Shown piece by piece: positions 1 to 36,544 of a stretch of 64,000 nt of DNA. Source of the DNA: Amoebophrya sp. A120. Its lineage: Eukaryota; Protista; Dinoflagellata. Within the stretch, counting starts at the first letter, position 1; each line of letters starts with the position of its first letter. The stretch lies in the NCBI GenBank assembly GCA_905178155.1, contig CAJINV010000005.1:7996515-8060514 (forward strand), in the 5' to 3' direction. A program made the position numbers and the translations under genes. The notes under the pieces were generated by a model, which was not told the DNA's origin, ran no database searches, and saw only the letters and a program-made list of their open reading frames with translations.

Positions 1-3000
1 ATCGTTGTTCATTTGTTCCTCGTCCATATTAACATGGTTCTCACCGTCGTCGTCGTCGTCATCCCCCGCCGAGCTGCTCATGGCCTCCAGCATATTGTTG
101 TGGTGGTCCATTTGATCATTTTGAAGATTACTATGCGGGCCCAATAAGTTGTTTGTCCCTTTAATATTTTTCCGTTTCTCTGTGCTGCCCCCGATGTTGA
201 AGCCGGCATCTATCCTGAGTAAAAACGTCCCCACACCAGAGGCAAGATGGGGATTTCGCAACACAAACCTAGAAGCTTTGGGAGTCACGCATGACAAGTT
301 GCACTCCGTAGTGCAGTGCAGGATAGCAAGCGCAGCCGCATCACAGATTCATCTGCTTATCCTGTTCATAGCATCACAAATTCCACAACACGTTTGGAAA
401 TGTTTACCATAGGTATGCGCATCACAAATGTCCTTGCCATTGCAAATCTGCATGACAACTCTGGGGTGGGGACGTTTTTCCTCAGGATAGCCTCGTCCAG
501 CTCGTCATCCGAGTCCGATAATTCAGAAATTTCGTCGGTGTTATCGCAAGAAAAAATTGTTTCACTGTAAACCTGTGATGCATAAAAATGGAACACAGAA
601 ATATTTGTCTTGCTACACATGCAAGAAAGTGGATTTTTAGCTGTGTTTTCCCTTCGGAAGCTTGCATGGCAAATTGGATCTGTCATGTAGAGCAAACCTG
701 TGATGCAAAACCTGCAAAATCCTTACAGTGAAACGCTTTTTTCGTACGATAGGTGTCGACGTCGCTGTACTCTGAAAAGGTGTCCTGCTCTTTCTTGTCT
801 GTCGCACCGCCTCCTGCTCCGGGGGAGAGATGACCGAGTGCAGCAGCAGCATTTGCAGCTCCTGAGGATCCTGGTCCACCTCCAGCTGCTACAAGTTGTG
901 AAAATGCAACACCGGAGTCCTGAAACGTTTTCACCATCAGCCCGGTTGCCGTGTTTTGCACTAAGCCCGTAGTTGTATGATCCGCGGCTGCTGCGTTGGT
1001 CGCTTGCTATGCACTGCAAATATGTCAGGGTCTGGACGATTGCCAGGTTTGTCATGCATATTTTGCATGGCCCATGATACCTGTCACGCATGGCCTAGCA
1101 TCACAGATTTTTGGAGGGCTCCCTGTTGCCTATTCCGCATGAGAAATGCCCTCTTCACGTGAGACAAACGCGACCCCTGCTCTTGCTAGTCATGCACGAC
1201 AGATTTTTTTGGAATTCAAAGACAGCATCACAAGTTGTGACCTTCCAGACCCAGACTACGTATTTGCATTTGATACTTGCTCCGCTGGTTTGAATCCGTT
1301 TTCCACCAGCCACTTGTCGTGCGACTGTTTCCAGGAGTCGAGACTCTGGATGAGCTGCGGCTTGCTGGGATCGGCGTCCAACTCTTTGACTAACTCTTCC
1401 CCGACTTCATCCTGCCACTTGCTGTAGAAATCAAGCTTCTTCTTCTTCTTTTTCGTGGGTACTAAGGAAGCTGTAATTTTTTGCCCAGCAGCAGCTTTGG
1501 AGGTCGTGGCAGCTTTATCTGCTGCTGTTCCGTCGGCCGTGGTCGTGACAGAAGATTTATTTATTTTCCCCGCCACCACCGAAAGCGCGACCTCTTCTTC
1601 CGCTTCCAGTTTCGGAAACAATTTTTTGTCACACACCGCGCCCATTACCGGGTCGCAGGTGCTGCCCCGCTTCCAACTGGTCAAAAATAACTCCGTGTTG
1701 AAATCTTTCAGCACCAGTACTCGCGCGAAGTTGGGGTCCACCGTGGACATAATGGCAACGCACTTTCGCTTCAGCTCCACGATTCCCTGTGAGACCTTTG
1801 TATCAAATGCAAAAGCATCGTACTCGTAGTAATCGCAGTCATGCACCATTACAAATTTTTTTCTTAACAAGGTCAATCCCCATGACAAATTTCATTTCTC
1901 ATGCTGAGGAAATTTGTCATGCATTTATACGAACACGATACTTTTGCAGTTCATACTTTGCCTGCTTGGACGATTTCTGGCCCATATTCGTGGGAAAATT
2001 CAATTTAAAAGCCGACCTTCCCGTAATTTGCCGGTGGTTTTCCGCTATCCTGTGCAAAAGTATCGTACTCGTACTGATTGCAGTCATTCATTACAGATTT
2101 CTTTTCCAAGCTAAATCAGCATGACAAATTCCCTTTCTCATGCTGATGAAATTTGTCATGCAATCACTACTAGTACGATACTTTTGCACAGGATATCCGC
2201 GTGCGTTTTCGGGTCGAAGACTGCCGTCGTCGCCGGCTGCGCCGTGGGCTTCTTACTGTCGTAGCCGAGGGCTTGGAGGAACGAGAGAATTTGAATCGCG
2301 ACCCAGAGCTGGAATTCCGGGGCGGAGAACTGCAGTTGGAACCGGTCCGCATCGGAGCTGAAGCCGACATTTCCGGTCGGTAACCGCGAGGTCAAGGACC
2401 CGATAAAGGAGGGATTTAAAGTGTTGGAAAATTTGTTGGTTGAGCTTAAGTATGCACTGCAAATATGTCTGGGCGGTCTGGAACAATGCGACATTTGTTA
2501 TGCTAGTCTGGCATGACACTAAGCTCTGTATTGCGTCGCCACAAAGAGTGCCCTGTTTATGTTATGCAAAGTGGCTGCTTCTCATGCGGAATACGGAAGA
2601 ACAGAGAGCCACGGAAAAATTAAAATCTGTCATGCTTGGCGGTGCATTACAGTGTGCTTACTTTTCACTGACATGCATCACAAGTTTCCAGACCCAGACA
2701 TTTTTGCAGTTGATATCAAGGGTAAGTTCAGCCCGAACTTCTTGCAATGCCCGGAGGTCACCGCCGGGATCTTTTCGTCGCGCGAGGTCTTGATGTTGCC
2801 TTGCTTCAGCAACACGTGGAAGGGTTTTCTGGGGATGGAGTGCTGCTTGTAAATTTCGGACAAAGCCGTATTGGACGACTTCGACCCGTATGCTCTGCAA
2901 AAGTATCGCATTCGTAGTAATTGCAGGGATGCATTACAAATTTTTTTCGTAACGTAAATCCGCATTACAAATTTCATCTCTCATGCTAAGATATTTGTAA

Positions 3001-17006: not shown

Positions 17007-20000
17007 TTACTTGAACCGTCCGTCCCCGAACAGGTGGATGGGGGTGTGATGCACAAAGTGCCAGATCATCAACCCGATGAGACCCATCTGGCACTCGTCC
17101 ACCTTGGTGGTCTCAATCAGCTCCTTCTGGATCGCGCACGGCCAGCCCCACACGCACATGACGCCCGACTTTGGCTTGTGGTTTGCGGCTATGGATTGCA
17201 AAAATGTCTGGGTCTGGAACAAAGCAACTTGTCATGCTAAATCTGAATCATGTAAGAATCTGTGTTGCATGATTACCATAAGCTGTGCACTTCTGACCTA
17301 ATCGAGAGGCAGTTTCTCCTGCAGGATAAGGGATGATAGAGCTCTCACAGAAACTGTCATGCTATGTCCTACATACCAGACCTCATGGGTCATGGAAAAC
17401 CTGCATGACAAGTCTGGCACTCTTCCAGACCCAGACATACTTGCAATGCATAGCGGCGATCACGAAGCAGGCGTCATGCGGACCGAGACTGGTGGCGAAC
17501 ATACCCGCGCTATGCATTGCAACTACGTCTGGCTCTGGAGGCTGAATGACACAAAAATCTGTGTTGCGTGACTACCAAAAGCTGTCCGCTTTTGCCCAAG
17601 TTGAGACGGAGTCTCTCATGCAGGTAAGGCATGATAGAGACCTCGAAGAATCTGTCATGCTCGGTCTCGCATTCCAGACCTCATGGGTCATGGAAAACCT
17701 GCATGACAAGTCTTGCAATCTCCCAGACCCAGACATATTTGCATTTGATACGCGCCCCATGGCCACCACGTGTCCTTCAGCTGCTTCGGCATGCAGCAGC
17801 CCAGGCAGCCCCCGGACCCGTACTTGACGTTGTCCAGGATGCCGATCCTGCGGTTTGTCATGCGGAAAACGAATACTACCATAAATCAGTCATGCACACA
17901 ACGTAAGTACAACGCATTCAAACGATTCAAATAGATACGTCAACGCATGCGAATGGAAATCTGCATCACAAACTACAACAAAAATTATCTATACTGTTTG
18001 CAAATCTGCGTCGCCTGTTCCTCGGACGGGTAAGAGATTTTCGGGATAGGGTATAACTTGCTCAAGCGTTACAATCTCAAATCGGTTACCATAGAATATG
18101 GAAATCTGTGATGCAAGAAGTGCATGAGCTAACCTACTCTCACAGGATTGCGCATGACAAGTTTCGGAGAAACCAAACCGCACTAGAATCTGTGGAAATT
18201 TGTATTGCAGCATGTGGAATGCTCTGCGATTCTGTCATGCTCGTCATGCAAGACAAAATCCAGAGTCTATGGTAACCGCTTTGGGATTGTAACGCTTGAG
18301 CGGGTCATATGGGGTGCAGCTCCCAGTTGCTCGGGCTGCCCACGCAGCCGTAGTTGCAATCACCCGCAGCGAAAATGATATCGCAGTAAAAAACTGTTTC
18401 CCTGTGATGATTTTGCAAGATCTGCATCACAACTTTGTTCCACATGGCACAGAAAATTTGCCATGCGCACTTCCCAAGGGAAAACACCCTTAAAAACCTA
18501 ATGTCTTGCATGTGTAGCAAGACAAATAGCTTTGTGTTCTGTTCCATGCATCACAAGTTCACAGTGAAACAGTTTCTTCGTGGGATAAATGACGCCCTTG
18601 CCCCACACTTCGCCGGAGGCCGTGGTTACTTGCTATCCTGTGGAAAAACGTCTCCACCCCAGAGTCAAGAAGGGGATTTTTCCTTTTGCTACACAAATCT
18701 ACAAGTTTTGGCTGTCGCGCATGACAAGCTTGGGCTCGTAGGGTAGTTGTAGTCCTGTTTAGCTAGAGCAATCGCATCAGAAATCGTCTACCTCATCCTG
18801 ATTCGAGCATGACATATCCCAAAACAGCATCAGAAAATGCGAGGCATCAAAAAATGCTCCTCATACATAGGGCTGCGCATGAGAAACATTTTAGGCGTGA
18901 AGAATAGCATGACAACTCTCCTGCGGTGGGGACGTTTTTCCACTGGATACTTGCAGCTTCTTGTTCATGTAGATCCAGCCGCCGCCGCCCGGACCTGTGT
19001 TTATTTGATGGGTACACAGACTTCTCCCTATGCGCAGCATGCATCACAAAAAGTTTTGTCATGCGCAGCATGCATCACGAATAAAAGGCCTAGTACTAGT
19101 GTATGCTGTACTTACCCTTATCCGACAAGGTTTCCTTTGGCATGAAGTAGTTGCTCGCCTTCACTCCCTATCAAAAGTAAAAATGTCTGGGTCTGGAAAC
19201 TTGTGATGCTGGGTGGCGCCTCATGATGAGGCTACAAATGCTGGCTCAGCATGACAAGTTTCTGAGCTCCTAGGTGTTGCCTATTCTGCATGACAAACTG
19301 CGCTTCTGCCTCACAGAAAAACGGAGCTCTTGGGTAACGTGCACGACAGATTTAAGAGTCATGCCAGACAAGGATGAAAAACGTGAATTCTTCCAGACCC
19401 AGACATTTTTACATTTGATACCCCCATGCAGATGTAGGTCTCGTCTGCGCCCGATGGCAGGCCGATCTTGTTCCAGAAGTCCTGCGACTTTGGCTCGTAC
19501 TTTACACCGTATACTGTCTTAATTCCGACTTTGGCCATGTAGGCGTCGCAGTACTCCTGCGCTTTCACTGGGAGTGGGCCGAGACAATTGGGCAAGAAAT
19601 CGATGATGGTGATTTTCAGCTTAGGGAAGAAGTACCTGTTGTTTGTACAGCAGATGGCTCTTTTTTTATCCCACGATTATTGGGTCCTTTTCTGCGCGAG
19701 ATAGTAGTAGTACATCTCAATGTCGGTGGAAAATAATCCAATGTCTACTGCAAGAACGTCGCAGATGGTACTACTGTAACGAAGAATCCCGGGCAGTGCA
19801 GTACCTCCTACGGCCACTAGTCCATCCTGTATGACCAAAGAAAACTTTGAAACAAAATAAAAATCCCATACTGCAGTTCCGTCGCCCACTCGACACCAAT
19901 AAACCCGGCGCCGCAGATCAGCAGTGTCGCTGCTTTTTCGTATGCAATGCAAAAGTTGTAATTATCGTACTTGTACTTGTTCCAATGTCTTCGACATGAC

Positions 20001-22589
20001 GAATCTACTTTCTTCACCGAACCAGCACCACAAAGTCCATTTTTCTTTCCGAGAAAATTCGCTCGTGTTCTTGTAAAATGCATTTTACTGCACTAGTAGA
20101 GCGATAAGAAGTACTTTTGCAATCTGCATATCTTGTTCAGTTCCGCGATTTTAGCATGCTCCTCTAAGATGTGGCGGCGGCGACCCTCCTATCAACTGCA
20201 AATACGTCTGAGTCTGGAAGAATGCAACTTGTGATGCTGCATTTGGACTCCGAAAAAATCTGTATTGCATGAGCAGCAAAGGGAATGTAATCTGCCACGC
20301 GGACAGAGCATTTGCCATGCGGAATAGGCATCGCGAAGCCCTCAAAAAGTCCGTGATGCTAGGGCATGCATCACACGCATCATGGCCCATGCAAAACGTG
20401 CATGACAAGTCTCAGAATCTTCCAGACCCTGACATTTTTGCATTTGATACCTCCAGGTACCGTTCGTCGATGTGCTTTATCCTGTGTAAAAACGTCCCCA
20501 CGACCCCAAAGTTGAAGTTGTCATGCAATCCTACAAGCCTAAAATATTCCTCATGCGCAGCAACAGCAAACGAAGCGATTTGTACTCGGTGTTTTGGAAC
20601 AATAATTTGTCGTGTTAGCACTAGGATCAGAGTTGTTCCCGTTTCTGATGCGTCTGCGCTGGCTAAGCACGAGTTTTGCACTGCAAGCCTAAACTTGTCA
20701 TGCGAGAATGCCAAAGCTTCTGGATTTGTGTTGCAAAATTCTCATCTTGACTCTGGGGCATTTTCACTCTGGATATGCTTCCAGCTGGAGTTAGCGCGAC
20801 CACACTCGTGGACGGTGGGGAACCTGACAAGTAAGTTTGGGGAGTTTGTCATGCTAGTCTGGCATGTTACAACCTCTCAGCTGTTGCATTTTTGCGTGGC
20901 CGCGAAGTAGAAATCCTCTTTTTTGCATAAGACAAACGAACCCAGAAGTCGTTAAAATGGAGATTTTGCAACACAAACTGAGAACTTTTGGCAATCACGC
21001 AATCGTACCACAATGACTCCCCCTGCGGATGCAGGAAGTTTATCCAGGAAAAAAAACAGTGTAAGTGTAACTCTGTAGCGAGAATAGCATTACAAATTCG
21101 CTTTGCATAGCAGGAAAAACCTGTCATGCGCAGCTAGTACGTGGAAACACGTCGTGTGAAAGTAGCCTATGAAGCAGACCCAGCATGACGAGTGTAAACA
21201 GTTTTGCACTTTGTTCTGCATCACAGACTTACACTCACACAGTTTTTTTCTTGCATAAAGTTGAAGTTGCAGCCACTGCAGATGACGCAGTAATCGAAAC
21301 CCAATTCCTCGGTCTGCCCCGGCTCCGTGCACATTGGCTGTACGGTCGCGGTTATCCCACAAAAAAAACTGTTTCACTGTGATGATTTTGCAAGATCTGC
21401 ATTACAAGTTTGTTAATACACATGACACAGAATTATATTTGCCATGCGTGCACTTCGCATCGGCAAAAATAACTACACGGTTGACAAAACTCCAATGTTC
21501 TATGCAGGTGTAGCAAGAAAGACACTTTGGTGCTTCATTTTCTGCATCACAAGTTCACAGTGAAACAGTTTTTTCTTGCGATAGCGGTCAAACTTGAGCC
21601 GTTCAGGGAAAGGACTTCACCCCAGATGAATTTGCACCCCATCTTGTGTTCGACCACATCTTGCAGCGTAAAGGTCAACGCGTCCAAATGGCACGGCTTC
21701 ACGTAGGCACGCAGGATACCTATAATTGACAGGTTTTGCGTTATTCTTATTGTGTTTTCGCCGTGCATGACAAATTCCCGGAGCATGAGAAATGGAATTT
21801 GTAATGAGAATTTACCTTCAGAACGAGATTCGTGGTTATGCAACATAAATGTTGTAGACATAAATCAAATAAGAACCTGGTGTGTATTCAAAAAATTCCT
21901 TGGCATCCACGACCGTGACATCGTATTTTTTTCCCATGTCCCGCGCTATGAGAGTGCACAACCTCTCGTCCACCCCCTCATTTGTAGTACACTTGTTCCA
22001 GCAACAGAGAAACAATCTCGAAAGTGCTGTCTTTGCATGGCAAATAATCTACTTCCAAACTCGAGACTTAGTGAATTGTGATCTTCCAGAGCTTGTCATG
22101 CAAAAATGGCCAAGCGACTCTGACAAGATTTGGTAAAAACCCATTTTTACATGACAAATGAGCAGGCGGGGCAGTAGTTGTGCACCCTCATACTGGCGAC
22201 GAGCAGGCCAGAAAACCCGTATCAAAATGAAAAATCCCCCCTCCCCATATCGAAAAGGTACGTCTCAGAAAATTTGCAATGCTGATCTGTGGCCACAAAT
22301 CGTCTCCGTCTTGCAGGAACGTAACTCCAAGCGCTCCGCCGCATTCTGCAGGCGGTTTGTGATGCTGCTGGCCCTACAGCCTAGACGTTTGCCATGCTCA
22401 GCGCCTAGCCCGAAACCTCCCTACTCAGGCTCAGCATAGGCCTGCAGTCCTCTCTAGCAAGACAAAGCTGATTTGTGGACGCAAATCCAGCATCAGAAAC
22501 TTCGTTTTGATATGGGGAGGGGGGATTTGTCCTTTTGATAACCCGCCGCCGATAACGAGCACGCGACGCTTGGGAGCGGAAGGCGCCAT
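17007..22589 (-). CDS. FAD-dependent pyridine nucleotide-disulfide oxidoreductase, AIFM2/FSP1/AMID-like
   Basis: Spliced translation MAPSAPKRRVLVIGGGFSGLLVA...DVTVVDAKEFFEYTPGILRA...FDYCVICSG...LLICGAGFIGVEWATELQ...VIFAAGDC; two Rossmann GxGxxG motifs and a GD motif. 12 TIR introns and about 6 GT-AG introns. Confidence 0.87.
17190..17452. mobile_element. Introner family A
   Basis: TIRs; TSD gcggc. Confidence 0.9.
17511..17750. mobile_element. Introner family A
   Basis: TIRs; TSD cgcgc. Confidence 0.9.
18052..18309. mobile_element. Introner family K (GCTCAAGCGTTACAATC TIR, about 42 bp)
   Basis: TIRs; TSD taggg/tgggg. Confidence 0.88.
18379..18587. mobile_element. Introner family C
   Basis: TIRs; TSD aatga. 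Confidence 0.9.
18634..18949. mobile_element. Introner family B
   Basis: TIRs; TSD cttgc. Confidence 0.9.
19169..19420. mobile_element. Introner family A, young 252-bp subfamily
   Basis: TIRs; TSD ctccc/ccccc. Confidence 0.9.
19941..20130. mobile_element. Introner family I (TGCAAAAG TIR, old)
   Basis: TIRs; TSD tttcg/tcttg; frame restored. Confidence 0.8.
20190..20449. mobile_element. Introner family A
   Basis: TIRs; TSD cctcc. Confidence 0.9.
20478..20775. mobile_element. Introner family B
   Basis: TIRs; TSD tgctt. Confidence 0.88.
21041..21257. mobile_element. Introner family G
   Basis: TIRs; TSD aagtt. Confidence 0.9.
21353..21583. mobile_element. Introner family C
   Basis: TIRs; TSD gcggt. 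Confidence 0.9.
22220..22540. mobile_element. Introner family E; splits the FAD-binding GGGFSG motif
   Basis: TIRs; TSD acccg. Confidence 0.9.
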
Positions 22590-24368
22590 CTTTTTGTCGT
22601 AGTTGTAGAGAGGATCTGTACTGAAGTAAACTTACTTCCAGCTCGTCGTGCTGTACCGATGTCTACTGTCACCTCGTCCTATCAAATGAGCAAGATAGAA
22701 TTTGTTGCAACCGAAAGTGAGAATGAGATACAGAATGGTCTCGGTAATAAATCAGTACTTCTGGCGCAACGTACTGCCGTCGCTCAAATTATAATAGTGT
22801 CTTGTCAACTACCTCGTCAACTGATATTCTTGAGCGTATTTTAGTATAACTCTGTTTCGTTGTCTATCGGCAGCGGTGGACGTTCCGTAAAAGTAGAAGA
22901 CCACGGGCCGGTTATTTATTTCACCGAAAAAAGAAGATTGGTCAGTCAGTACTTCGTTGGGTGGTCCTAATGAATCATACACAACAGCAAAAAAAAGCTT
23001 TTTCCCGGTGCGGGATACTTATGATGAAACTGAGTCAGGACAACTACACGGCGAGGCCGTGGTGAAAGATTTTTGGAGTAGCTGGGGAGAGAACTCTGTC
23101 AATCGGGCTCCGGGGAGGCCGGGGCTTTATGAAAAAAAATATCCGTCTTCACTAGGGGGTGCAGCTTATCGATAAGCAGCCACTGTAAGAAGTGTATTAA
23201 CCGATGAGAAGTCATGAATCAAGTCGTGGTCTTGTATCAATTTTTTGCCTCATCAGATGGATCCATCTAGCTCGTGTTTTGTGCTTATGAGTTTTGTGCG
23301 ACGTAAAAATGTCAAACTAGTCTCCAATTCATCTCGTGCCTCATGCGTGATAGAAGGTATAGTACTTACCTCGTTTCGTGAGGATGGAGGATATCAACAG
23401 GCTCTGAAAAAAAAAGTGTGGGTTGTGTGCGCTACAACTACATCGGCAACTACTTATTACTGTCACTTGAACACACATGGGAACTGCAGTTGTCCAAATG
23501 CCAACTGCAAAAACCTCCCTTCACAAAAAACAGCAGAAGTCATCACCGGCTGACTCTATATACCCACTATCAAATAAACAAAAGCGGTGTTAGATGAAAT
23601 AGCCTCATCTCTCGGTGGGAATTATGATTTTCTTCCTGGCACTGGCTGTAATTTTGTGTCTTGTATCTTTAGCATCGTGTACTAACTTTCTCGACTGCTA
23701 CAATCGAGCTAGTCTCGTTGATTGTGCATAAATGGTTTGCTCTTTCACCGTGGTCCCCACAACAACAACCAGACCGGTTCTATGCACAACATGCAAAGAC
23801 GTCGTTCGTTCTAGCTGCCTTAGCCGTGGTAATCATCCGCCTCTGCAAATAGTTGTAGTACCACAGCGAAAAAAAACGGCGACTTCTCCTCGAAAAAACA
23901 ATCAATGTTGTTGTAAAAAACTTCGGGTGAGTAAAATCTCGCTCTTCTTTCGGAATCATTTGACGTTGTAACGTTCCGTGTTGATGAAATTGCTTTGCCT
24001 TGTTCTATAATCCTCTGTTCACAATCACAGGCTTAGTATCTGCGAACGTATTTGTTCTACTAGTGAAAAAATTGTGTAATTTTGCGTATTTTCATCCCTA
24101 CGGTGTTGGTGGACCAGCAGCGACGTAATAAATGACGTAAAATAACCAGGCTGCTCGTCTACGCTCTCCTCGTCTTAGCTAGGTAGTAAAAACCTCCTCG
24201 TACTACATACTCTCTTCGCCAAAAAAGGTCTCTATCACCTTCTACCAGGCCATTGATAGTAATTTGCTGCGATTCTTTAATCAAAAAGCGTTGTTGAATA
24301 CTTATTCAAAACCTGCGTCGAGGTCGGCGAAGTTCCATTTCTGGAGTAATGAAAATCATATAAGTATT

Positions 24369-27342
24369 TCACTCCTCCTTCACCTCCTCCTTAGCATCGT
24401 CCTCTTTGGCTTCCTCTTCCTCCGCCGGGGGCGGCGGCTGCGCCGACGGGTCTTGCGGTTTATATGGGACAGAAACAGTTGACTTTGATTACTTTTCTGA
24501 ATTTGGCAACATGACAAGTAATTTACACAATAAACGATCTGCGTCTGCCGCATAGTACGCCGCGGCTCCGCATGACAAAAAATCTGCCCACGCGGAATAT
24601 GACGGTCGTACGCATGACAAATGCAAATCTACCCGTACCCACACTTCTTATGCGACTCCGCATGACAGATTTCCCCACGTTGTGCCAGTTCGCATGACAA
24701 ATCTTATCTGTCTCTCTCCCATACTTCCTCCAAGATTTTCAGGGGCGCCTCGTCCTTTTCCAGCACTACCGCGTTATCCTCTTCCACCGGTGGGTGTCAT
24801 GCTGAAAACCCTACATATAGCAGATTTGTTATGCTGCGGTCCTATGTAGAACGGCAGTTACTTCCATTCATCCATGCTGACAATTCCGCATGACACATGG
24901 CACTGTACATGTGCCAACCGGCATGACAGATTTACTAACTAAATCTGCTTGTACGATAAGTAACATCTCCCATCTGATACTTCTGGGACGTAGTTGGCTT
25001 CCTTGTCCACTGGCTCACCGGCATCTGTTGAGGTAGTTTGTCATGCACGGTACAGAATCTCGAAGAGCATTTGCGCATCACAAGAACTTCTTTTGCGAAC
25101 TATATGGAAAACTTTTCGAATTTTACCCTCTCTCGGTGGTGTCGGCAGCTCCGCTATGACAGTGCACAAAAACCGAACTCCGCAACCACTCCCCGGGGCC
25201 CCAATTTTTTGTCATGCTAAAATCCGATCATCCAGTTCCAGTCTGTCAGATGTACTGCCCTGCATGGTCGTAATTTGCGACGACAGAAGGGAGTTGTCCC
25301 GGCAAGGAAAAATTGCCACTGCTGTTCTTTCCAATGCTGGCAAAAATTTCTTATGCCCTTCGTGACGAGGGACCCAGTGGGACGAGAGCGAGGAGTTGTG
25401 CGCTGTCATATCCTCAGGAGCGACGATAGAAAATCGGTTGAGGCCGATGATCTTTTCTTCTTTGTCTTCATTCCCACCTGCTGCGAGGTCCTCTTTATGC
25501 ACGTCTGAAGCGCGCACTAGAGAGTGCCGCGCCCGGTGTGCGACTAGGGACCCTATTTCAAAAACATCGCGTATTGAAAAAATTACTGTAAGCACATTGC
25601 CAACTTTAACTTTCGCTATTAGTCATGAGGCTATCAGGCTTATGCGTGACAAAGACCCTTGCAGGCGCTTCCATCTAGCTCATGACAGTAGAGATAAAAT
25701 AGATCTACAAAACTGTACCTGCTTCCACAATGTCGTGCGTTTCTGTTTGGCCGATTATCATGGGCGCCAACTGCTCCCCTCCACCCAAAACCGGGGCCTT
25801 CCCGAGGCTCACGCGGGTGCCCAGAAGCGACTGATTCCTTGGTACCTTGGTCGCCAACACCGCGGGTCGTACCGTCAGCGATGGGGCGCGGATTACTTTT
25901 GTGCGGATGGTGGTGCCTGCGTCCGGGGCTGGCACGGCGGGCTTCCCGTCTGGCCCTTGAAACTGTGGCTGGACTAAACCCGGGGCGGCGAGATTTTTTT
26001 ATGGATTGCAAAAATGTCTGGGTCTGCAAGGATGCGAACTTGTGATGCGGATTCTGGAACAGCAACAGGCAAAAATCTGTATTGCGTAGTCAGCAAAAGG
26101 TACCCGAATTTTGTCTCCAGAAGAGGGCATTTGTCATGCGGAATAGACATGGAGAAGCCTCCACAGAGTTTGTCATGCTCTGTGTGCATTCCAGACCTTT
26201 TTGTAGATGTAGAAAATGCATGACAAATGTCTGATTTCTTCCAGACCCAGACATTTTTGCATTTCATATTTTTACCTTTTGTTTGATGTTGAGACAAGGT
26301 GGTCTTCGTCTTTCACTTTCTTTCACGGAAGGCGGGCAAAAATAGTACTAGCATGATAGCGAAGACAAACTGACAGAACTTTGATTTCTTCGTAAATTAA
26401 GTGAAGTAAAGTGTGAAGTGAATGGAAATTGATAAAACAGAAATCGATCCATCATCATGATAATATCCAAGAAAAAAACCGTGTTAGTGTAAGTCTTTTG
26501 GGAAAACAGCATGAGCATCACAAGTTTGTCTGCCATGACGGGACAAACTTGTCATACGCAGATACGAAGGGAAAACACATAGGAAGCGAGCCGGTCATGC
26601 ATGTCGAGCATGACGAGTGTAACTGTTTGGCATTTTCTGCATCACAGATTTACACTTACACAGTTTTTTTCTTGCATAGATATATAAGTCAGTACGTTTA
26701 ATCTCGGGTAGGAAACTTTCCCGGCCACTTGCAACACTGGTTTTACCGCTGGCGTTGGCGCATTGGCGACCGCGACACCTAGGTGGATAATTTTTTAAAT
26801 TTATGATGTGGTTTGTGCATGACAAAATGCAACCTTCATGCAAGCTCTGCATGACAAGTTAATTAATTTAAGATTACCACTTGGCGGCGCGAGCCCGAAG
26901 GGTTTAGACAGGTCGAACGGCTTGGTCTCACCCTTGATTTGTTGCCCGAACTTCACTTCCGTATATGCACTGCAAATATTTTGTTATCATGCCATCGTCT
27001 TCCGCGTGTTGACGTGTGCTCCTGGTCATGCAAGATAGAAGCCATAAGCCGTGGCGGCGAATTTGTGATGCAAAATAGAAGTACAACTAGAGGGCGGCGG
27101 GTAGAAGTTCTCTATTTCTTGAAACTGCACCGACAGTAGTACTCAGTCTTGCAGCAGGAGCGTAGCACATCCCATCGTCTGCAACTGCGTTTGCAGCGTG
27201 GACGTAGAGGTAATCTCCAAAGCCAGATTCTCAAGATGGGGATCAGATAAGTATTTGCAGACGATACCGTTGCGCTGAATTTCAGCACTGGTCGCCCCGC
27301 CGCCGCTGGTACAGCGGAGCTGCTCCCCGCAGGGTTTGACAT
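24369..27342 (-). CDS. Hypothetical protein, mostly GT-AG introns; exon structure approximate
   Basis: Open exons such as ...KQKVKNLAAPGLVQPQFQGPDGKPAVPAPDAG... (frame kept across element 26000-26268) and terminal VPYKPQDPSAQPPPPAEEEEAKEDDAKEEVKEE*. Putative ATG at 27342. Confidence 0.5.
26000..26268. mobile_element. Introner family A
   Basis: TIRs; TSD ttttt. Confidence 0.88.
26464..26678. mobile_element. Family G element, probably inside a GT-AG intron
   Basis: TIRs; TSD gataa/gatat. Confidence 0.85.
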
Positions 27343-28385
27343 TTCGTTCTACTCCACTGTAGTATAATTCGTTGCCAATCTTCTGCTATACTTTCGAATG
27401 ATCTGCAGGTCCTTTTTACGAGCTGTAAATACCTGTAGTTGTACAGCTACAGCCTTGGCCACACTATAGAAAAGTTGCGACGGCGAGGAAGCCTCTTGTT
27501 CGTCTTGATACGTACTCAAGATGAAAAGTGTCTAATATTCCCCACCTCGCGTGCGCGTAGAAAATCAGAGTCACACTTCGTCTCAGTCCCTTCTTCTCTC
27601 ATCCATTTTTATCAACATCAAGTAATTCGTTGATTTCTACCTTTTCCACTCAACATGTTCGCTGTCAGGCGGTTTGATGGCACTATCCCGGCACCACGCA
27701 CCCTAAGAACTCTCTTGTTTCAACAAAGAAAAAGAACAACGCAAACGATCAAACAACGCATAAGAGATGAACAACAGGCTGGACAGCGACACGTGAACAA
27801 AAAAGGAAATAACGCAACTCCGATTCGTACTTGACACGTCGGTGGCAGATTTTGTAAAATGTTGGGCGAGGTCAGTTGTTCTGTCGATTCAATTTTTTTG
27901 CGCAATTTTGATTCTCATAAACCATCATCGTGTGACTTGACGTTGACATTCCAGACTTTTTAGAATATTCTCCAGCAGTGTAGTGCTCATCTTCTCTAGT
28001 CTACCAACCACGTGTGAAAATGTAGTCCACCGTAGGCGAACTTGCAATAATACGATCTATCTTCACGAAGGCGCTTCATTCTTGCATCTTCTCTATTGAA
28101 TAAACAATAAGTCTACTCTCTGGTTGCGGTTCGGTCTGTAGCCCGCCCAACAACATGCGTTCAAGCCCGCATTCTGGAAACAAGGCGAAGCGCGTCACTC
28201 TTTTTCAAAAACACTGGCTGAGCACTAAGTAGGAACTAGTAGATCGTCTTCGTCTTTGTTCCCTGATTTTTCTAGGCGTTTACCACGTACGAGCGAAGTA
28301 GTCTTCTTTCTTCACTGTGAGCATTAACGTCGTGGTCCCACTTCTGGTGTTCTCGATGCCAGACGAATAAAATATGATCTTCCGC

Positions 28386-28595
28386 TATCCCACGAAAAAA
28401 GTGTTACAGTTACACATTTGCTGTCAATTCAGCAACACAAATTTCTCTGCATGAGAGAGAAAATTTGCAATGCAGAAATCCTAGGGGAAAACACCCATGA
28501 AACGAGGCTCCTATGCATATCCTGCATGACAGAGCTTGTCTGTCTTGCTTGGTCTGCAACACAATGTGTAACTGTAACACTTTTTTCTTGCGATA
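28386..28595. mobile_element. Family H element in AsnRS 3' UTR
   Basis: TIRs; TSD tccgc. Confidence 0.9.
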
Positions 28596-28626
28596 TCCGC
28601 CTGTAGTACAACTCAAAGCCGTGGTC

Positions 28627-31600
28627 TTAAAACTCCGCGTGGCCCGGGTACCGCGGGAACGGAATCACGTCGCGAATGTTGTCGATCCCGGTGGTCAGCA
28701 TGATCAGCCGCTCGAAACCCTATTGTGAGGAAAAATCCCCCCTCCGCATATCAAGATGAAAATTCGTGATGCTGATTTGTGACCACAAATCAGCTCTGTC
28801 TTGCAGAAAGTGCTTGGCGGTATTTTCCAAGCCTGTTAGAGTATGCACCAAAAGGCTAGCAATTAGGCATGGAAAACAGGGTTGCAGTAGTCGAACGCGC
28901 ATCACAGACTGGCTGTAGGATGCGCCACACGGCTCCCATTCCGCTATAGGCAAGACAGAGGTGATTTGTGACCACAAATCAGCATGACAAATTTCCATTT
29001 TGATATGGGGAGGGGGGATTTTTCACTTTGATAAACCCAAGCCAAACCCGCCGTGGGGGACGGTCCCGTACTTGCGGAGGTCCAGGTACCACCAGTAGTC
29101 CTGCGCCTCCAGGCCGTTCTTCTCGATTTTGTCGACCAGCACATCGTACCGTTCCTCACGCTGACTCCCCCCGATAACCTCACCCACGAGCGGGGCTAAG
29201 ACGTCCATTATGGGTGTGTCAGCATCGAAATCGACAAAGTCGAACTAATCTGTAATGAATAAAATCGATCCCAGTTGGACCCCCAATTTTCAAGCGGCGC
29301 ATGACAAATCTTTGCTCTACCGAAATCCAGTCTGTAATGCTGTTTGGGCAAAGGAGACCGCTTCTGTCATGCTAGAGTAGCAGCGCTATATCTATCCCTC
29401 AATTTGCCTATGTATACAGGCGTACAATCGGCCTCACTTCCCTGCTGTCCAATACAGGCATTCTGTGGCTTGCATTTTATGCATTACAAGATTTTTCAAC
29501 TTTGTCGATTTCGGTCCTGACACTCCCATATCCATGGCGGCGCACGTTTTTCCGTCCTCGTTGGCGCGCATGTAGAACGACTTGATTGCAATATCAAAAG
29601 AAAAAAGTTCGTCACGATCTCTTACCGGCATTTTTGCAATAAAAAAACATGCCTGTCATGCGTAAAAATGCATCACAGCCAAACTTCATACGGGATTTCC
29701 CTTCGTGTTTCTGCAATACAAGGCAAAGCTGTGACGCTACAAAAATTTGTAATGCAAAACCTCCAAGTTAGTGACTGTGACAAACTTTTTTCTCTCCATA
29801 TGCAGCCGGGTAGTTGTAGACAGCGACTGTATGATGTTTTATAGTGGTTTCTACATTTTAGACAAAAGTTAAAGTAATGACTCGATGTGGTTCTTGCATG
29901 ACAGAGTTCACACTTTTAAACTCACTCGGCAACGTTTCAACATGCTGTTATTTCCGCCTTACTGTAGTAGGTGTACCTGGTAGTACAAGTACCAGGTACT
30001 ACTGCATGACAACTACACATTTCCCATGCAAGAATCATAATCTTCCAAAATCCTATACCGGGCCTCTTGAAGTACTCTTCGGCGATGTACTTTTCGTGGG
30101 CCGAGTTCAGATCCATGCCCCACTCGATGGTCAGCAGCTGCGGGAAGGATTTCTTGTGATCCGCGTAGTTTTTTTCCAGGTACTTCAAAAATTTGCCGTT
30201 TTTCACTTCCTTCGTCAGCAGGTCAATGGCCTCGGTGTAAGAAAGTCGGCCGAAGGGGTTCTCCAGCAGGTTCTTCAGCCGGTCGAGGAGACCCTTCTCG
30301 ATCTGTTGTATTGAATTTGTGGGGATTCTACTTGAATATGTTATGCAAGTTCTTGCATGAGAGACATGGCTTGTAATCCTGCCTTGTGCATGACAACTTC
30401 TTCCCCTTCTGTTCTGTGCATTCTATGCAGCAAAACGCATGGCAAATCAATCAGTACCTGTTTGTCAAAAAACTGCAAGTCTGTGTAGCAGTTGTCAACG
30501 GCATACTGGACGCAAAACTTCAAGTAGTCCTCCGCGCACCGCTATGCAGGTTGCAAAAGCACTCTACTCGTATTAATTGGATTCTTGCATGGCAAATGTA
30601 TCTCCTTCCCCCTTCTTCTTGCGCATTACAGACTGCGACAGAAGTATAAGTTTTGTTTCTCACCAGCAATAGAATCAAAATTTGTGATGCAAAAATTCCT
30701 ATACATAGTTGGAACGTGTACGTGCTCTTCCAACGCGTAACTGCATGACATCCGGCAAGTCGGCAAACGCCAGCTCCGGCTCAATCATCCAGAATTCTGC
30801 CAAGTGCCGGCCCGTGTGCGAGTTCTCCGCGCGGAAGGTCGGGCCAAACGTGTACACATCCGACAAAGCGCAGCAGTAGTTCTCTACAGCAAGCTGAATT
30901 TGCATTTGTCAAACAGTTTATGTTTGTCATACAGAGGCAACAATGATCAGCATGTAGTTTCTCCTGTTCTTCTTGCAGCGTAGATGATAGATTACTTTAA
31001 AAAGCACAAAAGATGACCTCCGCAAGTACTAGTCGTGCCATCAAACAAATTTGAGACTTTTCCTCGTATACCTGCCCACTCACGGTCAAGTAGCTTTTCG
31101 CCTTGAAAAAGTCCTTCGAGTAATCGACCGAGTTCGGGTCCTTCGGGAAGGGTACATAGCCTTCTTCGCTTTTGTTTTTCTTGAAGGAGTATCAACTGCA
31201 AATATGTCTGGATGTCTGGAAACTTGTAAAAATGCTGAGTTGTGAATAATGAAAGCAACTGTAATGCACAGGCAAGCATGAGAAATTATATCTGCGCTTT
31301 TTTGTGTTGCGTTTTTCGCATGACAAACTGCGTTTTTCTTTTTGCATGACAGGCAAAAGGGTCTCATCTTCTTGGACACGCATCACAAACTTTTTCCTCA
31401 TGCCAGACAAGCATGACAAGTCTCGCAATCTTCCAGACCCCGACATTTTTGCATTTGGTAAGGAGTCAAACAGGGTGGTCACTTGGAACATCTCGCCCGC
31501 GCCCTCGCAGTCCGACGCGGTAATCAGGGGCGTGTGCACGTAGAGAAAGCCCCGTCGGCGGAAAAACTCGTGCGTGGCGTAGGCAAGGGAAGAACGGACC

Positions 31601-34600
31601 CGGGCGACCTGAGGTCGTAAGAAAGAAATGATATACGATTTTTCATTTGTTTGTGACGTAGTGACACATACAATAGTACAGACGACTTCTACTCTTTTAC
31701 TCTTAGACTACGTAAGCGATCTCCGGGGGCGCATTCATAGCATACTGCGGTAAGATGAGTCGGACAATCTCATAAATCTATCCCACGAAAAAAGTGTTTC
31801 ACTGTGATGATTTTGCAAGATCTTCTGCATCACAAGTTTGTTACACATGCCACTGAAAATTTGTCATGCGCGCTTCCCAAGGGAAAACACGCTTGCAAAT
31901 CCAGTGTCTTGCAGGTGTAGCAAGACAAATAGTTCTGTGTTCCATTTTCTGCATCACAAGTTCACAGTGAAACAGTTTTTTCTTGCATATAAATCGTTCT
32001 CACAACAATAAGTACCGCGCCGATCAAGTTCGACCGTGGTCGCAGGTGCGCGTTTATGGATTTTTGCAAAAGCATCGCACTAAGTAGTAGAAATCGCATG
32101 ACAAATATCCTCATTTTAAGAAATGGATTTTGTCATGCTGATTCACGTTGGGAAGAACGCGATAATTTGTAATGCATGACAGCGATTTTCATATACGAGC
32201 ACGATGCTTTTACCCTTGATAGCGTTGGTGCGCAGGTGCTCGCGGGAGTGCGGTTTCGGTGGGAGGGGATAGACCGCTGCGTCGACGGACCCGATATGGA
32301 ACTGTCAGGATTGAAATTGACAAAGTTGAAAAATTTGTGATGCATAAAATCGATACCAGTTGGAAGCCCAATTTCTAAGCGGCGCATGACAAATTTCGGC
32401 ACCGTCTAAATCCAGTGTGTCATGCTGTGTAGCGAAAGAAGGCATCCTTTGTCATGCTACTTTAGCAGCTCTGTCGCAGACCCCAAACAGGCTGACAGTC
32501 GGCCTCGCTTGCCATCACTGCAAGAGAGACACTTCACGCCTTGCAATTCATGCATGAGAAATTCTTTCAACTTTGAAGATTTCAATCCTGACACTACCAT
32601 AACCGAGAACGGTAACTTCGTCGTTTTCTTTCAAGGCCATCTCCACCACCTGCCCTTTCGCCGGGGACTCCACAAGCTGCCCAAAGCATTTTACGCTGGC
32701 GCCCGTGTTCACCTGCCCTTTCAGTGTGTCGTACCTGGATTTGGTACATGGAAATAATAGCATTTACCAAATATCTTTAGAGAAGTCGAAGTGTAGTTTG
32801 TCATGCGCGACGAGGAGCAGGAAATAAAATCAAATTGAAAATCACCTGTGCTGCAGAGACCACCACACGAAAAATAAATTCTCCTAGTTCATCATCATCG
32901 CGGCTATATTCTATACCCTTTGCAGCTCTTGTCCACTACACACTGCATGTCCTGGAAGCAGCTGCCGTCGTTGATCTCCAAAAACGTAAACTCAGCCTGC
33001 TTATCAAATGCAAATATGTCTGGGTCTGGAAGAGCGGAAGACTTCATTGTCATGCAGGTTTTCCATGACCCATGAGGTCTGTAATGCATGATCTAGCATC
33101 ACAGATTTTGAGAGAGCTTCATGATGCTTGTTCCGCAGTAGATATGCCCTCTCGCCGTGGCAAAAACTGGACTCCTCTTGGTGGTCATGCATTACAGATT
33201 TTTTTCGAATCCGAAGACAGCATCACAAGTTACAACCTTCCAGACCCAGACATATATTGCATTTGATACTGCTCTCGCATCTTCTTCACCCAGCCGCAGA
33301 TCACGAGTTTCTGCCCGATCAAACTCTTGCCCTGGTCCTCCGCCAAGTGGATCCGTCTATTACAGTGAAAAATGCCCCCACGACCCCAGAGTTGTCATGC
33401 AAATCTGCATGCTGAAAATGTTTGTCATGCGGAGCCCCATGAGAAGCATTTCCTGGTCGTGTTTTGAAATTTGTAATGCGCCAATCAGCATGATATACTA
33501 GCTCTGTGATGTTGCTGAACTACCTCAAAGAGCACTTCTACACTGCGACTCTAAATTTGTCATGCAAAACAGTCAAAACTCGTGGACTTGTCTAGCCGAT
33601 TTCCCATCTTGACTCTGGGGAAGTGGGGACGTTTTTACATTGGATACCGTCCGATCCTTGTTCTCCCCCCGATCACAGAGGAGCACTGCGAGTAATGCTG
33701 CACAATGGGTCGGTCCTCGGGCTTATCAAATGTAAAAGTGTCTGAGTCTGGAAACTTGTGATGCTGGGTGGCGTCTCATGATGAGGCCACAAATGCTGGC
33801 TCAGCATGACAAGTTTCTGAGCTTCTAGGTGTTGCCTATTCTGCATGACAAACTGCGTTCCTGCATCACAGAAAAATGGAGCTCTTGGGTAACGCGCATG
33901 ACAGATTTAAGAGTCATGCCAGACAAGCATGACAAACATGCATTCTTCCAGACCCAGACACTTTTGCATTTGATAGGGCTTCAGCATCAAATTTTCACTG
34001 GTTTTGGATGAAGACGCCGAGCTGGAAGTTGTCGCCGTTGTCATGTTGCTGCTGGGTAAACTCAACACCTTTTGCTGCTTCAAAACTTTCTGAAACTCCG
34101 GCTGGTGCAGGCAGGTGTTGAACCACCGTTTTGTGGCGACGCAGGACTTATAAAATGCAAAAATGTCTGGGTCTGGAAAATTCTTGCGGGAGTTTGTCAT
34201 GCATTTTGTGGATCACGCAACTGGTCCCTAATGCACGCAAAAGCTTTACAGGTTTTGCGCAGGCCTCTGATGTCTATCCCGCATGAGAAATTCCCTATCT
34301 GTGTAGCAAAAAATGGGAAGCTTTTGGTGCTTATGCAATACAAATTTTTATTTTTGCCTATTGCAGAATTCGCATGACAAGCTCCTACTCTTCCAGACCC
34401 AGACATATTTACATTTCATAGGACTCCAACCCCAGTGCCCCGGAAGACATCTTCGGGTAGAGCGAAATCGCGAGACTGACATCCGCCACCGTGATGCGCT
34501 CCACCGACGTGAGGAAGGTTTTCTTCACGAAATGCGGCTCCAGCACGTTGGTGATCAGCTCGGTCAAGGCCTTGCCCATCCGCACCTCGACCTCCTGCTC

Positions 34601-35580
34601 GCAAAACTCCAACCAGGAGTCCACTTCCGCCTGCTCCTGCAGCGTATCCTGTGCAAAAGTATCGTACTCGTAGTAATTGCATTTATGCATTACAAATACA
34701 AATCTCTTTCTCAAGGTAAATCAGCATTACAAATTTAATTTGTAATGCTGGGCTAATTTGTAATGCAATTTATACTAGTACGATGCTTTTGCACTTCATA
34801 CAGCGAGCCGCCGAGCAAGAAATCCTGCTTGTCCTTGCCGAACTGCTGGCAGATCTGCTTTATCAAATGCAAAAGTGTCTACGTCTGGAAGATTGCAACT
34901 TGTCATGCTGAGTCTGGATCATGCAAAAATTTGTGTTGCATGATTGCCAAAAGATGTCCGCCTTTGACCAGGTTGACAGGGAGTTTGAGTTTCTCATGCA
35001 GGATAGGCATGATGGACATCTCACAGCATCTCTCATGCTAGGCGCTGCATGCCAGGCCTCATGGGTCATGGAAAACCTGCATCACAAATCTTGCATTCTT
35101 CCAGACCCAGACATTTTTGCATTTGATATGCTTCAAAATCGGGGCAATGAACGTGATGCTGCTGTTATCCTGAGTAAAAGCGTACGCACACCAGAGTTGT
35201 ATTGCAAATCTGCATGCTGAAAATGTTTCTCATGCGGAGCCCCATGGGAAGCGTTTTCTAGTCGTGTTTTGCAATTTGTCATGCTCCAATCAGCATGGTA
35301 TGCTAGATCTGTGATGCTGCTGAGCAGGCTCAAACAGCACTACACTACGAATCCAAATTTGTCATGCAAAACAGCCAAAACTTGTGGACTTGTCTAGCCG
35401 ATTCCCCATCTTGACTATGGTGTGGGTACGTTTTTACTCAGAATAGCTGTTGCCAATCTTCGCGACCGTTTGCCCGGCGGCCTGCTCCTTGGTCTTCACA
35501 TCGGCGTTGCAATAGGCCGCAACGATCTCCGCCTTCGTTTTGTGAAGCGCGTTCACGGTCTCCAGGTCTATGGAGGGCAT
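28627..35580 (-). CDS. asnS: Asparaginyl-tRNA synthetase (class IIb) with N-terminal GST/EF1Bgamma-like domain
   Basis: Spliced motifs: [128 protein letters not shown]. 14 TIR introns; GT-AG introns 29827-30058, 30303-30457, 30894-31071, 31609-32015, 32735-32916. Confidence 0.96.
28721..29033. mobile_element. Introner family E; splits motif 3 (GLGF|ER)
   Basis: TIRs; TSD aaccc. Confidence 0.92.
29209..29530. mobile_element. Introner family F (TATGG...TGTCAGGA TIR)
   Basis: TIRs; TSD tccat. Confidence 0.9.
29592..29800. mobile_element. Introner family J (AAAAAAGTT[C/T]GTCAC TIR)
   Basis: TIRs; TSD tgcaa/tgcag. Confidence 0.88.
30543..30739. mobile_element. Introner family I; right end GTA
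   Basis: Degenerate TIRs; TSD accgc/actgc; restores DVMQ|CAEDY. Confidence 0.82.
31190..31460. mobile_element. Introner family A; right end GTA
   Basis: TIRs; TSD aggag. Confidence 0.9.
31779..31989. mobile_element. Family C element nested in GT-AG intron 31609-32015
   Basis: TIRs; 6-bp TSD taaatc. Confidence 0.9.
32055..32221. mobile_element. Introner family D
   Basis: TIRs; TSD gcgtt. Confidence 0.88.
32295..32601. mobile_element. Introner family F
   Basis: TIRs; TSD cccga/accga. Confidence 0.9.
33002..33268. mobile_element. Introner family A
   Basis: TIRs; TSD ctgct. Confidence 0.9.
33358..33646. mobile_element. Introner family B
   Basis: TIRs; TSD ccgtc. Confidence 0.9.
33724..33975. 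mobile_element. Introner family A, 252-bp subfamily
   Basis: TIRs; TSD gggct. Confidence 0.9.
34149..34420. mobile_element. Introner family A
   Basis: TIRs; TSD ggact. Confidence 0.9.
34645..34800. mobile_element. Introner family D
   Basis: TIRs; TSD cagcg. Confidence 0.9.
34861..35128. mobile_element. Introner family A
   Basis: TIRs; TSD tgctt. Confidence 0.9.
35166..35445. mobile_element. Introner family B
   Basis: TIRs; TSD gctgt. Confidence 0.9.
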
Positions 35581-36544
35581 TTTCTTACCGAGATTCTTGT
35601 ATAGCTTCTCTAAATGAAAATAAATGTGGGAGGTCGCTTTATTCTATGAATTCAGGTTCTCTGGTTGTAACTAAAGTGTGGTCGACGTGCTATTGAGTCC
35701 GTAAGTGTAGTTGTCGCACAAGCTGGTGAGTCTCAGTATGGTAAAAAAAGTGAAACGCGTTATATTTTTACAGCCTGGAATAACAAAAAGATACTCGTCG
35801 AAAAGCAAACTTTTTTTCATGTACAACAACCTTATCAATTTCTTGTGTACTAGTAGCGTCAGGATCTTTATCTCGTGCGACGATCATGTTGTGTTACTAC
35901 AGTCGATCTCAAAGATGTTCTTGATCTCCACGTTTCTCGATCTTTGCTTCGTTCCTTCGTGGCGCAAGCGCAAGCCTCAACAAAAACTAAGGCAATTGCC
36001 GTGGTAAAAATTTTCGAAAATAAAAAAAGGCACTACACTTGTTTGACAACTGACGAAAGGAACGATCGGTCCTCTGGTTTGAAGGTTTGTAACAAGTGTA
36101 ATCTATCCACGAGATCCATCTTCTTCCAGAAACTTTTTTTCTTCATTTTTTGAGCAGGTAGCGATCTAGCTTCGCGCGCAGTTGTTGAAAACGAAAAGGC
36201 TATAAGCAGGTGAACCGCTGCTATTTTTTTCGAATGAACGACGCTCCGGAGCCAGCCTTTCTGTGTCATGTGCCTCTACTTACATCCCGTTCTTCTGAAG
36301 GAAGTGCGGGTTCGGGAAATTTTGGTTACTTTTCTGTTTGAAAATAAATGTATATATGTGTGCTGGTCTCCGTGTCTTCACTGCACTTCCGCGGACCATT
36401 AAACCAGAATGGTAAGTACATACGTGGACGCTCCAAGCAGGCACAACTAGTAGCCTATTGTGTAGTTCTTGCAGTACTCAAGATATACCTGTACATTGCT
36501 TCGTAGTTCTTTCCGAAAAACATATTTCAGAACAAATAAGTAAT

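What the first reader, a model, noticed from the sequence alone, without database searches (positions are those of the whole stretch)
31185..31465. Junctions where no G or AG is available at any possible splice register
Seen: the sense-strand repeat here is CTCCT, and at 26000-26268 it is AAAAA. Whichever register inside the repeat is used, an element + 5 nt intron cannot start with GT/GC/GA or end in AG, yet the AsnRS frame (TTLFDS|FKKNK...[14 protein letters not shown]) requires removal. The sense repeats across AsnRS (ACAGC, AAGCA, CGCTG, AGTCC, AGCCC, GACGG, AACGC, ATGGA, GGGTT) share no consensus. Inference: splice sites are set by distance from the TIR stem, not by dinucleotides.
Basis: partly seen in the sequence, partly recalled or inferred. 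Interest (0 to 1): 0.8.

Follow-up and report, generated by a model that had tools for sequence, protein, structure and literature searches.

The report
Amoebophrya introner cut without GT-AG
This is one of the already published transposon-derived introns of the marine parasite Amoebophrya A120: transcript assemblies lack it exactly although it offers no normal splice signal, and the cut likely falls one base before and four bases after its hairpin ends, likely made by a loosened spliceosome, which would turn an unsolved splicing puzzle into a direct test.

Summary
Observation confirmed. 31190-31460 is a TAT/TAC...ATA inverted-repeat element with a 5-nt target duplication in the minus-strand AsnRS gene. 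Contigs of two runs, which also skip GT-AG introns, join 31183 to 31460: 276 nt, element + 5. None of 8 possible registers is GT/GC/GA..AG. This is normal here: 67 of 69 elements lack any GT-AG register, as chance predicts. The spliced product equals a deposited Amoebophrya sp. A120 protein, 719/719, so these are the introners of Farhat et al. 2021 (PMC7789003). Ten elements with diverged duplications bound the cut; the one register fitting all is N|NTAT...ATANNNN|N: 1 nt before, 4 nt after the stem. One contig row could read otherwise. So 'fixed distance, no dinucleotides' holds, but stem versus end-sequence recognition is untested, and NTAY resembles the local GTAY donors. Likely machine: a relaxed U2-type spliceosome (0.6). 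The scan already reported this register on other DNA of this genome.

The parts
31190..31460 (-). Introner body (271 nt); sense ends TAC...ATA; terminal inverted repeats about 30 nt
   Evidence: ends pair in the RNA fold (whole-region z -2.06, end duplex -28.7 kcal/mol)
31185..31189 (-). Downstream copy of the 5-nt target duplication (sense CTCCT)
31461..31465 (-). Upstream copy of the 5-nt target duplication (sense CTCCT)
31186..31461 (-). Inferred intron, 276 nt, TT..CC at the fitted register. The length is shown; the register is inferred from other elements
   Evidence: joint 31183-31460 in X1 and X2; register
26000..26268 (-). Second introner (269 nt) between AAAAA copies; inferred intron 25996-26269, 274 nt, AT..AA
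   Evidence: fold z -6.06; contig length 581 = model 581; model = P0019 295/295
26270..26275 (-). Inferred 6-nt micro-exon between GT-AG intron 26276-26695 and the 26000 introner
   Evidence: length fit to X1/X2 contigs; P0019 reads RLNVKNL
27898..35778 (-). AsnRS transcription unit; CDS about 35580-28627, 719 aa; 15 introners (14 in the CDS, 1 in the 3' UTR) and 5 GT-AG introns
   Evidence: spliced length 2872 = X2 contig 2872; identical to P0001; exons hit asnS models
30543..30739 (-). Introner with diverged duplication GCAGT/GCGGT: at least 3 bases kept from the upstream copy
   Evidence: Q498 in P0001 and the A25 ortholog
32295..32601 (-). Introner with diverged duplication TCGGT/TCGGG: at most 4 bases kept from the upstream copy
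18052..18309 (-). Introner with duplication CCCCA/CCCTA: at least 4
19169..19420 (-). Introner with duplication GGGGG/GGGAG: at least 4
19941..20130 (-). Introner with duplication CAAGA/CGAAA: at least 4
24463..24723 (-). Introner with decayed duplication GGAAG/TAAAC: 2 to 4
   Evidence: contig piece ends at 24458; P0019 model
24795..24979 (-). Probable decayed introner (TAT...ACA, weak stem, 1 of 5 duplication bases left): 3 or 4; GT..CA at register 4
   Evidence: P0019 model and contig length

Best explanation
These are Amoebophrya A120 introners, short inverted-repeat elements of likely transposon origin that transcript assemblies lack together with one copy's worth of their 5-nt duplication and without GT-AG, likely cut at one fixed register (1 nt before TAT, 4 nt after ATA) by what is likely the cell's U2-type spliceosome relaxed for the +1 G and the final AG. 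Shown: exact removal of element + 5, no usable dinucleotides, elements present in genomic-type contigs, related elements in both orientations. Inferred: a single register for all elements; the intron then starts NTAY, which would stand in for the GTAY donor, while the stem would bring the ends together and set the 3' cut 4 nt past ATA. Because removal restores the pre-insertion length whatever the target, insertions in exons would be nearly silent, which explains 15 in one essential gene. Identity of the elements about 0.97, fixed register about 0.85, spliceosome as the machine about 0.6.
For: Joint 31183-31460 in X1 and X2, in contigs that also skip 5 GT-AG introns. Total spliced length 2872 = 2872 and protein 719/719 with the A120 model. 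Register bounds: >=4 at 18052, 19169, 19941 (run after register 4 had been proposed, and register 3 would have failed all three); >=3 at 30543; >=1 at 29592 and 26964; <=4 at 32295; 2-4 at 24463, 3-4 at 24795, >=2 at 25155 (gene model). Intersection is 4. Both elements that offer GT-AG do so at register 4 (20190, 61126). Positions +2..+4 are TAT 68, TAC 2 of 70; local donors are TAT 4, TAC 4, TAA 3, TTC 1 of 12. End variants look strand-specific (5' TAC twice, 3' ACA twice, never their mirror images; n = 4). Related elements 33002 and 34861 sit in opposite orientation in the same spliced gene. Farhat et al. report U2, U4, U6 (and U5 in A120) and 83 of 89 spliceosomal proteins but no U1. Fritillaria is a precedent for a spliceosome retuned to non-GT/AG introns (abstract).
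Against: No lariat, branch point or intermediate was seen or could be tested. A stem of about -33 kcal/mol would bury the donor and needs unwinding. Each element gives only a bound, so one register is the simplest fit and not proven. The upper bound rests on one explicit contig joint plus two gene-model cases. One row (20189 to 20772, table 5c) could mean a cut 6-9 nt in at element 20478-20775; an alignment running through one mismatch beside an unaligned micro-exon explains it too, and the output cannot tell them apart. Contigs drop rare isoforms; 18 and 82 joint rows were not shown. The deposited gene models may rest on the same RNA data as X1/X2. Farhat's Fig. 3 legend calls the splice sites variable relative to the hairpin.
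Confidence: 0.6

Rival explanations
1. A separate, structure-guided pathway (endonuclease plus RNA ligase, or a second complex as proposed for euglenid nonconventional introns) reads the terminal stem and cuts 1 nt before and 4 nt after it.
For: All 70 elements pair their ends (median -32.8 against -5.6 kcal/mol for 12 GT-AG introns). Related elements are spliced in either orientation. No G or AG enrichment. U1 not detected in A120. Euglenid hairpin introns leave as circles, not lariats (review PMC11282704).
Against: The 5' end matches local donors at +2..+4. The weak-stem intron 24795-24979 fits the same register. The terminal pair is mismatched in 31190 and 30543 (TAC against ATA) with no change in length removed. 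The two GT-AG elements fall on the same register.
Confidence: 0.28
2. The cut is not fixed: the machine cuts anywhere within the duplication, and the product is the same because the copies match.
For: Farhat Fig. 3 legend (variable sites, border unknown) and Fig. S23 legend (repeats 1-5 nt from the sites); the ambiguous 20189-20772 row.
Against: Ten diverged elements all admit register 4 and together exclude every other. Aligner placement inside identical repeats would by itself give the published scatter (inference).
Confidence: 0.08
3. Artefact or DNA-level loss: reverse transcriptase jumps across the hairpin at the direct repeats, the RNA came from a strain with empty sites, or the elements are excised from DNA.
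For: Hairpin plus direct repeat is the known template-switch signature (recalled). X1/X2 are only guessed to be RNA.
Against: Retention puts a stop in AsnRS and the spliced protein is colinear with the A25 ortholog, 531 identities. Elements with only 1 or 2 of 5 repeat bases left fit the same removal. The same contigs skip GT-AG introns. X1 also holds an element-bearing contig, 29179-29560, 0 differences. X5/X6 contigs run through elements and introns and show depth 0 at the 7 exon-exon joints listed.
Confidence: 0.03
4. A nearby cryptic GT/GC..AG pair removes the element with a few codons changed.
For: Stop-free in-frame options exist, e.g. 31452-31180 and 31444-31169.
Against: Contigs of two runs and the deposited protein show the element + 5 joint.
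Confidence: 0.01

Closest known systems
Introner elements / non-canonical introns of Amoebophrya sp. A120 (Farhat et al. 2021, PMC7789003; seen: abstract, passages, sections 10, 16, 25 in full, supplement legends and part of Table S4; no figures)
   Same: Same organism (P0001 and P0019 are A120 models matched letter for letter). Inverted repeats starting TAT, 7 looser bases, then AAA; 3-5 nt direct repeats over the borders; about 240 nt; no dinucleotide signature; mixed with GT-AG introns.
   Different: The paper leaves the border 'variable' or unknown. Here diverged duplications point to one register, 1 nt before and 4 nt after the element.
TIR/TSD introners of other eukaryotes (Gozashti et al. 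2022 PMC9860276 and 2025 PMC12130899; passages seen)
   Same: MITE-like elements whose splicing restores mRNA length; A120 is listed among introner-rich genomes (2025).
   Different: The families described in the passages carry or co-opt GT/GC/GA and AG from the element or the target. These elements use neither.
Euglenid nonconventional introns (Guminska et al. 2018 PMC6221363, review PMC11282704; passages seen)
   Same: Paired ends, non-canonical borders, repeats at junctions, suspected MITE origin, unknown mechanism.
   Different: There the stem starts at +4 and -6; here at +2 and -5 with TAT/ATA. Circular products and order of removal are reported there and untested here.
Fritillaria borealis non-canonical introns (review PMC11282704 passages; Soo et al. 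2025 bioRxiv 10.1101/2025.08.15.670264, abstract only)
   Same: Transposon-derived introns that escape GT-AG.
   Different: They keep preferred ends (AG-AC, AG-AT) and are tied to duplicated U2AF and snRNA m6A changes. No preferred +1 or 3' dinucleotide is seen here.

Membership tests
Amoebophrya A120 introner element | Lies in the A120 genome | tested here: met
   Spliced products identical to A120 proteins P0001 (719/719) and P0019 (295/295)
Amoebophrya A120 introner element | Terminal inverted repeat starting TAT, 7 looser nt, then at least 3 A | tested here: met
   31190 reads TAT CAACTGC AAA on +; the other end is a TAC variant; 26000 reads TAT GGATTGC AAAAA
Amoebophrya A120 introner element | 3-5 nt direct repeat over the borders | tested here: met
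   5-nt duplication, perfect in 50 of 70 elements
Amoebophrya A120 introner element | Repeated in the genome | tested here: met
   Interior of 31190 is 81% alike to 10117-10378 over 192 nt; many other copies in X5/X6
Amoebophrya A120 introner element | Removed from transcripts with non-GT-AG ends | tested here: met
   X1/X2 are taken as RNA because they skip GT-AG introns
U2-type spliceosomal intron | GT/GC donor and AG acceptor | tested here: not met
   0 of 8 and 0 of 6 registers
U2-type spliceosomal intron | Lariat with 2'-5' branch; dependence on U2/U5/U6 | not testable with these tools
   Only contigs covered the gene; raw-read runs did not
U12-type (AT-AC) intron | AT-AC or GT-AG ends | tested here: not met
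   No AT..AC register at either junction; 3 of 70 elements have one; U11/U12 reported absent
Euglenid-type nonconventional intron | Stem joining the ends with pairing at +4..6 and -8..-6 and free termini | tested here: not met
   A stem is present but begins at +2 and -5 at the fitted register
Euglenid-type nonconventional intron | Excised as a full-length circle | not testable with these tools
   Needs RNase R / debranching sequencing
MITE (non-autonomous TIR DNA transposon) | TIRs, constant-length target duplication, no coding capacity | tested here: met
   longest stop-free frame in the two longest elements is 85 and 132 codons
MITE (non-autonomous TIR DNA transposon) | Cognate autonomous transposase in the genome | not tested
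   No whole genome held; Farhat et al. found none in A120

The most novel reading that the evidence does not exclude
Amoebophrya has a second, spliceosome-independent splicing pathway that measures from the hairpin of any TAT...ATA element, cuts 1 nt before and 4 nt after it and ligates the exons. That would be a sequence-blind nuclear pre-mRNA splicing system, arisen independently of the euglenid one, handling tens of thousands of introns.
Probability: 0.25. Interest if true: 0.85.

Novelty: already known. Interest (0 to 1): 0.4.

Why it matters
The elements and their lack of GT-AG are published. How they are spliced is stated there as open. A fixed register gives exact intron ends for some 30,000 A120 introners (Farhat's count), so lariat 5' ends, branch points and circle junctions become predictable and the choice between a relaxed spliceosome and a new nuclease-ligase pathway can be tested directly. 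It also explains how transposons can fill essential genes without changing proteins. The two junctions flagged here are ordinary members of the class, useful as clean test substrates because they contain no G or AG at any register.

Tried and rejected
No whole genome is held, so no genome-wide logo, snRNA search or transposase search was possible. No holder of the stretch is on record as RNA; X1-X4 are guesses. Raw-read runs X9 and X10 laid 87 and 9 reads, all only partly and in 1 and 2 of 30 bins: no information on splicing. A search for the deposited model of the gene at 1-9559, which holds six more diverged duplications, found nothing within the 2000-aa limit, so those six stay untested. 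Of 20 elements with diverged duplications, 10 gave bounds and 21947 only a length fit. A plus-strand GA..AG register exists at 31190; rejected because all GT-AG introns and the ORF are on the minus strand. A 275-nt removal at 26000, suggested by a contig piece ending at 25998, was rejected: 274 nt plus a micro-exon gives the exact contig length and the deposited protein. One 694-nt non-canonical intron there gives the same product and is less parsimonious. GT/GC/GA..AG registers are slightly rarer than expected (2 of 69, p = 0.04); not pursued, as the background came from one gene. The element list (69, later 70) comes from my own end-and-repeat scans plus contig joints; strand was taken as minus throughout, and some elements are intronic (26464) or without RNA check (all beyond 36 kb). 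Five paper searches listed no paper that, in the parts read, states the fixed register; Roy et al. 2023 and Henriet et al. 2019 were not read, and Farhat's Figs 3 and S19-S25 could not be seen and may bear on this.

Full report
What is there. The window holds about 70 elements of 149-959 nt with TAT...ATA ends, inverted repeats and a 5-nt target duplication. The flagged one is 31190-31460 (271 nt) in a minus-strand gene whose exons hit asparagine-tRNA ligase models. Its duplication is CTCCT in the sense direction; that of 26000-26268 is AAAAA. Because flanking letters also match, the joint at 31190 can slide over 7 nt. All 8 registers lack GT/GC/GA and AG, as do the 6 at 26000.

Is it special? 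No. Of 69 elements, 2 offer a GT-AG register, against 3.1% expected from exon 5-mers, and 12 have no G in either copy, against 18% expected. The two junctions are typical of the class.

Is it removed, and how much? Keeping the element leaves one in-frame stop, but the frame alone does not fix the borders: several stop-free in-frame GT/GC..AG pairs lie nearby. Contigs of runs X1 and X2 join 31183 to 31460, a 276-nt skip. Of the 15 joint rows shown, 9 are element + 5, 5 are GT-AG introns and 1 is a match between element copies; 18 rows were not shown. Removing 15 elements + 5 and 5 GT-AG introns gives 2872 nt, the length of the X2 contig, and a 719-aa protein identical to a deposited Amoebophrya sp. 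A120 model. The A25 ortholog is colinear across the junction. One of the 15 lies in the 3' UTR and is removed by the same rule. A model with 274 nt removed, a 6-nt micro-exon and a GT-AG intron gives 581 nt, equal to both contigs, and reproduces A120 protein P0019 at 295/295. X5/X6 behave as genomic DNA: their contigs run through elements and introns and have depth 0 at the 7 exon-exon joints listed; the other 8 rows shown link element ends of other copies, and 82 rows were not shown. This control covers 17950-27400, not 31190 itself.

Where is the cut? When the two copies of the duplication differ, the transcript shows which was kept. Let r be the number of bases kept from the upstream copy. 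From the first lay: r>=3 (30543), r>=1 (29592), r<=4 (32295), so 3 or 4. I then read earlier notes of this scan that give r = 4 and used the second lay as a test. Three elements differing at position 4 all gave r>=4 (18052, 19169, 19941), and 26964 gave r>=1. The P0019 model adds 2-4 (24463), 3-4 (24795) and >=2 (25155). Only r = 4 fits all ten: the intron is N-TAT...ATA-NNNN, which reads TT..CC at 31186-31461 and AT..AA at 25996-26269. Against: each element gives only a bound; the upper bound has one explicit joint and two model-based cases; the models may share data with X1/X2; and the row 20189-20772 (table 5c) could mean r = 6-9 at 20478-20775, or an alignment extended through one mismatch. 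I could not resolve that row.

What is read? At r = 4 the first base is C 22, G 18, A 18, T 11 and the last two bases take all 16 combinations, AG 5 of 69, with no enrichment. But +2..+4 is TAT in 68 and TAC in 2 of 70, and local GT-AG donors are TAT or TAC there in 8 of 12. Both elements that can be GT-AG are so at r = 4. The four end variants are strand-specific (5' TAC twice, 3' ACA twice), too few to lean on. The ends pair strongly (median -32.8 against -5.6 kcal/mol for GT-AG introns; folds), and related elements are spliced in opposite orientations within AsnRS (33002 and 34861). One weak-stem intron (24795-24979) still fits r = 3-4. Stem and end sequence are thus confounded by the palindrome, and 'distance from the stem' is one of two readings.

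Mechanism. Most likely (0.6) a U2-type spliceosome that no longer needs +1 G or the final AG takes NTAY as donor, with the stem or a protein bound to the ends placing the acceptor 4 nt after ATA. This is inference: no branch point or lariat was seen. A separate structure-guided nuclease-ligase route (0.28) is the main rival, with euglenid introns as precedent. Variable cutting (0.08), artefact or DNA loss (0.03) and cryptic GT-AG (0.01) fit poorly.

What is known. Farhat et al. 2021 (PMC7789003) describe these elements in A120: over 60% non-canonical introns, inverted repeats starting TAT, 3-5 nt direct repeats, hairpins, no U1 found, mechanism open, borders 'variable' or unknown. Gozashti et al. 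2025 list A120 introners. Five searches showed no paper stating a fixed register in the parts I read; figures and two key subscription papers were not seen. This scan has already reported the same register from other windows of this genome (unreviewed AI notes, not counted as support).

Verdict. Real, confirmed at transcript-contig level, and a member of a published family. The fixed register is a useful detail that makes the open mechanism testable. Novelty: already known. Interest 0.4.

Noticed in passing
window 25127-25552: Alternative splicing: X1 and X2 contigs fit a form that skips two exons and the 25155 element (55 aa), while the deposited model P0019 includes them.
   Followed up: partly
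whole window: The motif GCAT[G/C/T]ACA (either strand) occurs 10.9 per kb in elements and 6.3 per kb in GT-AG introns but 0.14 per kb in exons. It may be a protein-binding site, and suggests that some GT-AG introns derive from the same elements.
   Followed up: partly
window 26464-26678: An element sits inside GT-AG intron 26276-26695; whether it is spliced on its own first is unknown.
   Followed up: no
window 1-9559: A 1618-codon minus-strand frame opens only after 19 elements + 5 nt are removed and runs off the window edge; no database match was found.
   Followed up: partly
window 61794-62563: A 770-nt element carries about three tandem copies of a GC-rich unit of roughly 90 nt and a run of CACCTGTC repeats between normal ends.
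   Followed up: no
window 52556-53514: A 959-nt element with TATGGGA ends and long internal inverted repeats; no frame longer than 85 codons.
   Followed up: partly
window 33000-35580: AsnRS has an N-terminal extension of about 240 aa; the A25 ortholog matches GST_C there, the A120 protein falls below the threshold.
   Followed up: partly
12 GT-AG introns, 18995-32916: Acceptors are preceded by A/C-rich sequence with no polypyrimidine tract.
   Followed up: no
window 20450-20477: A 23-nt exon (at the fitted register) between two adjacent introners appears in both contigs (table 5c).
   Followed up: partly
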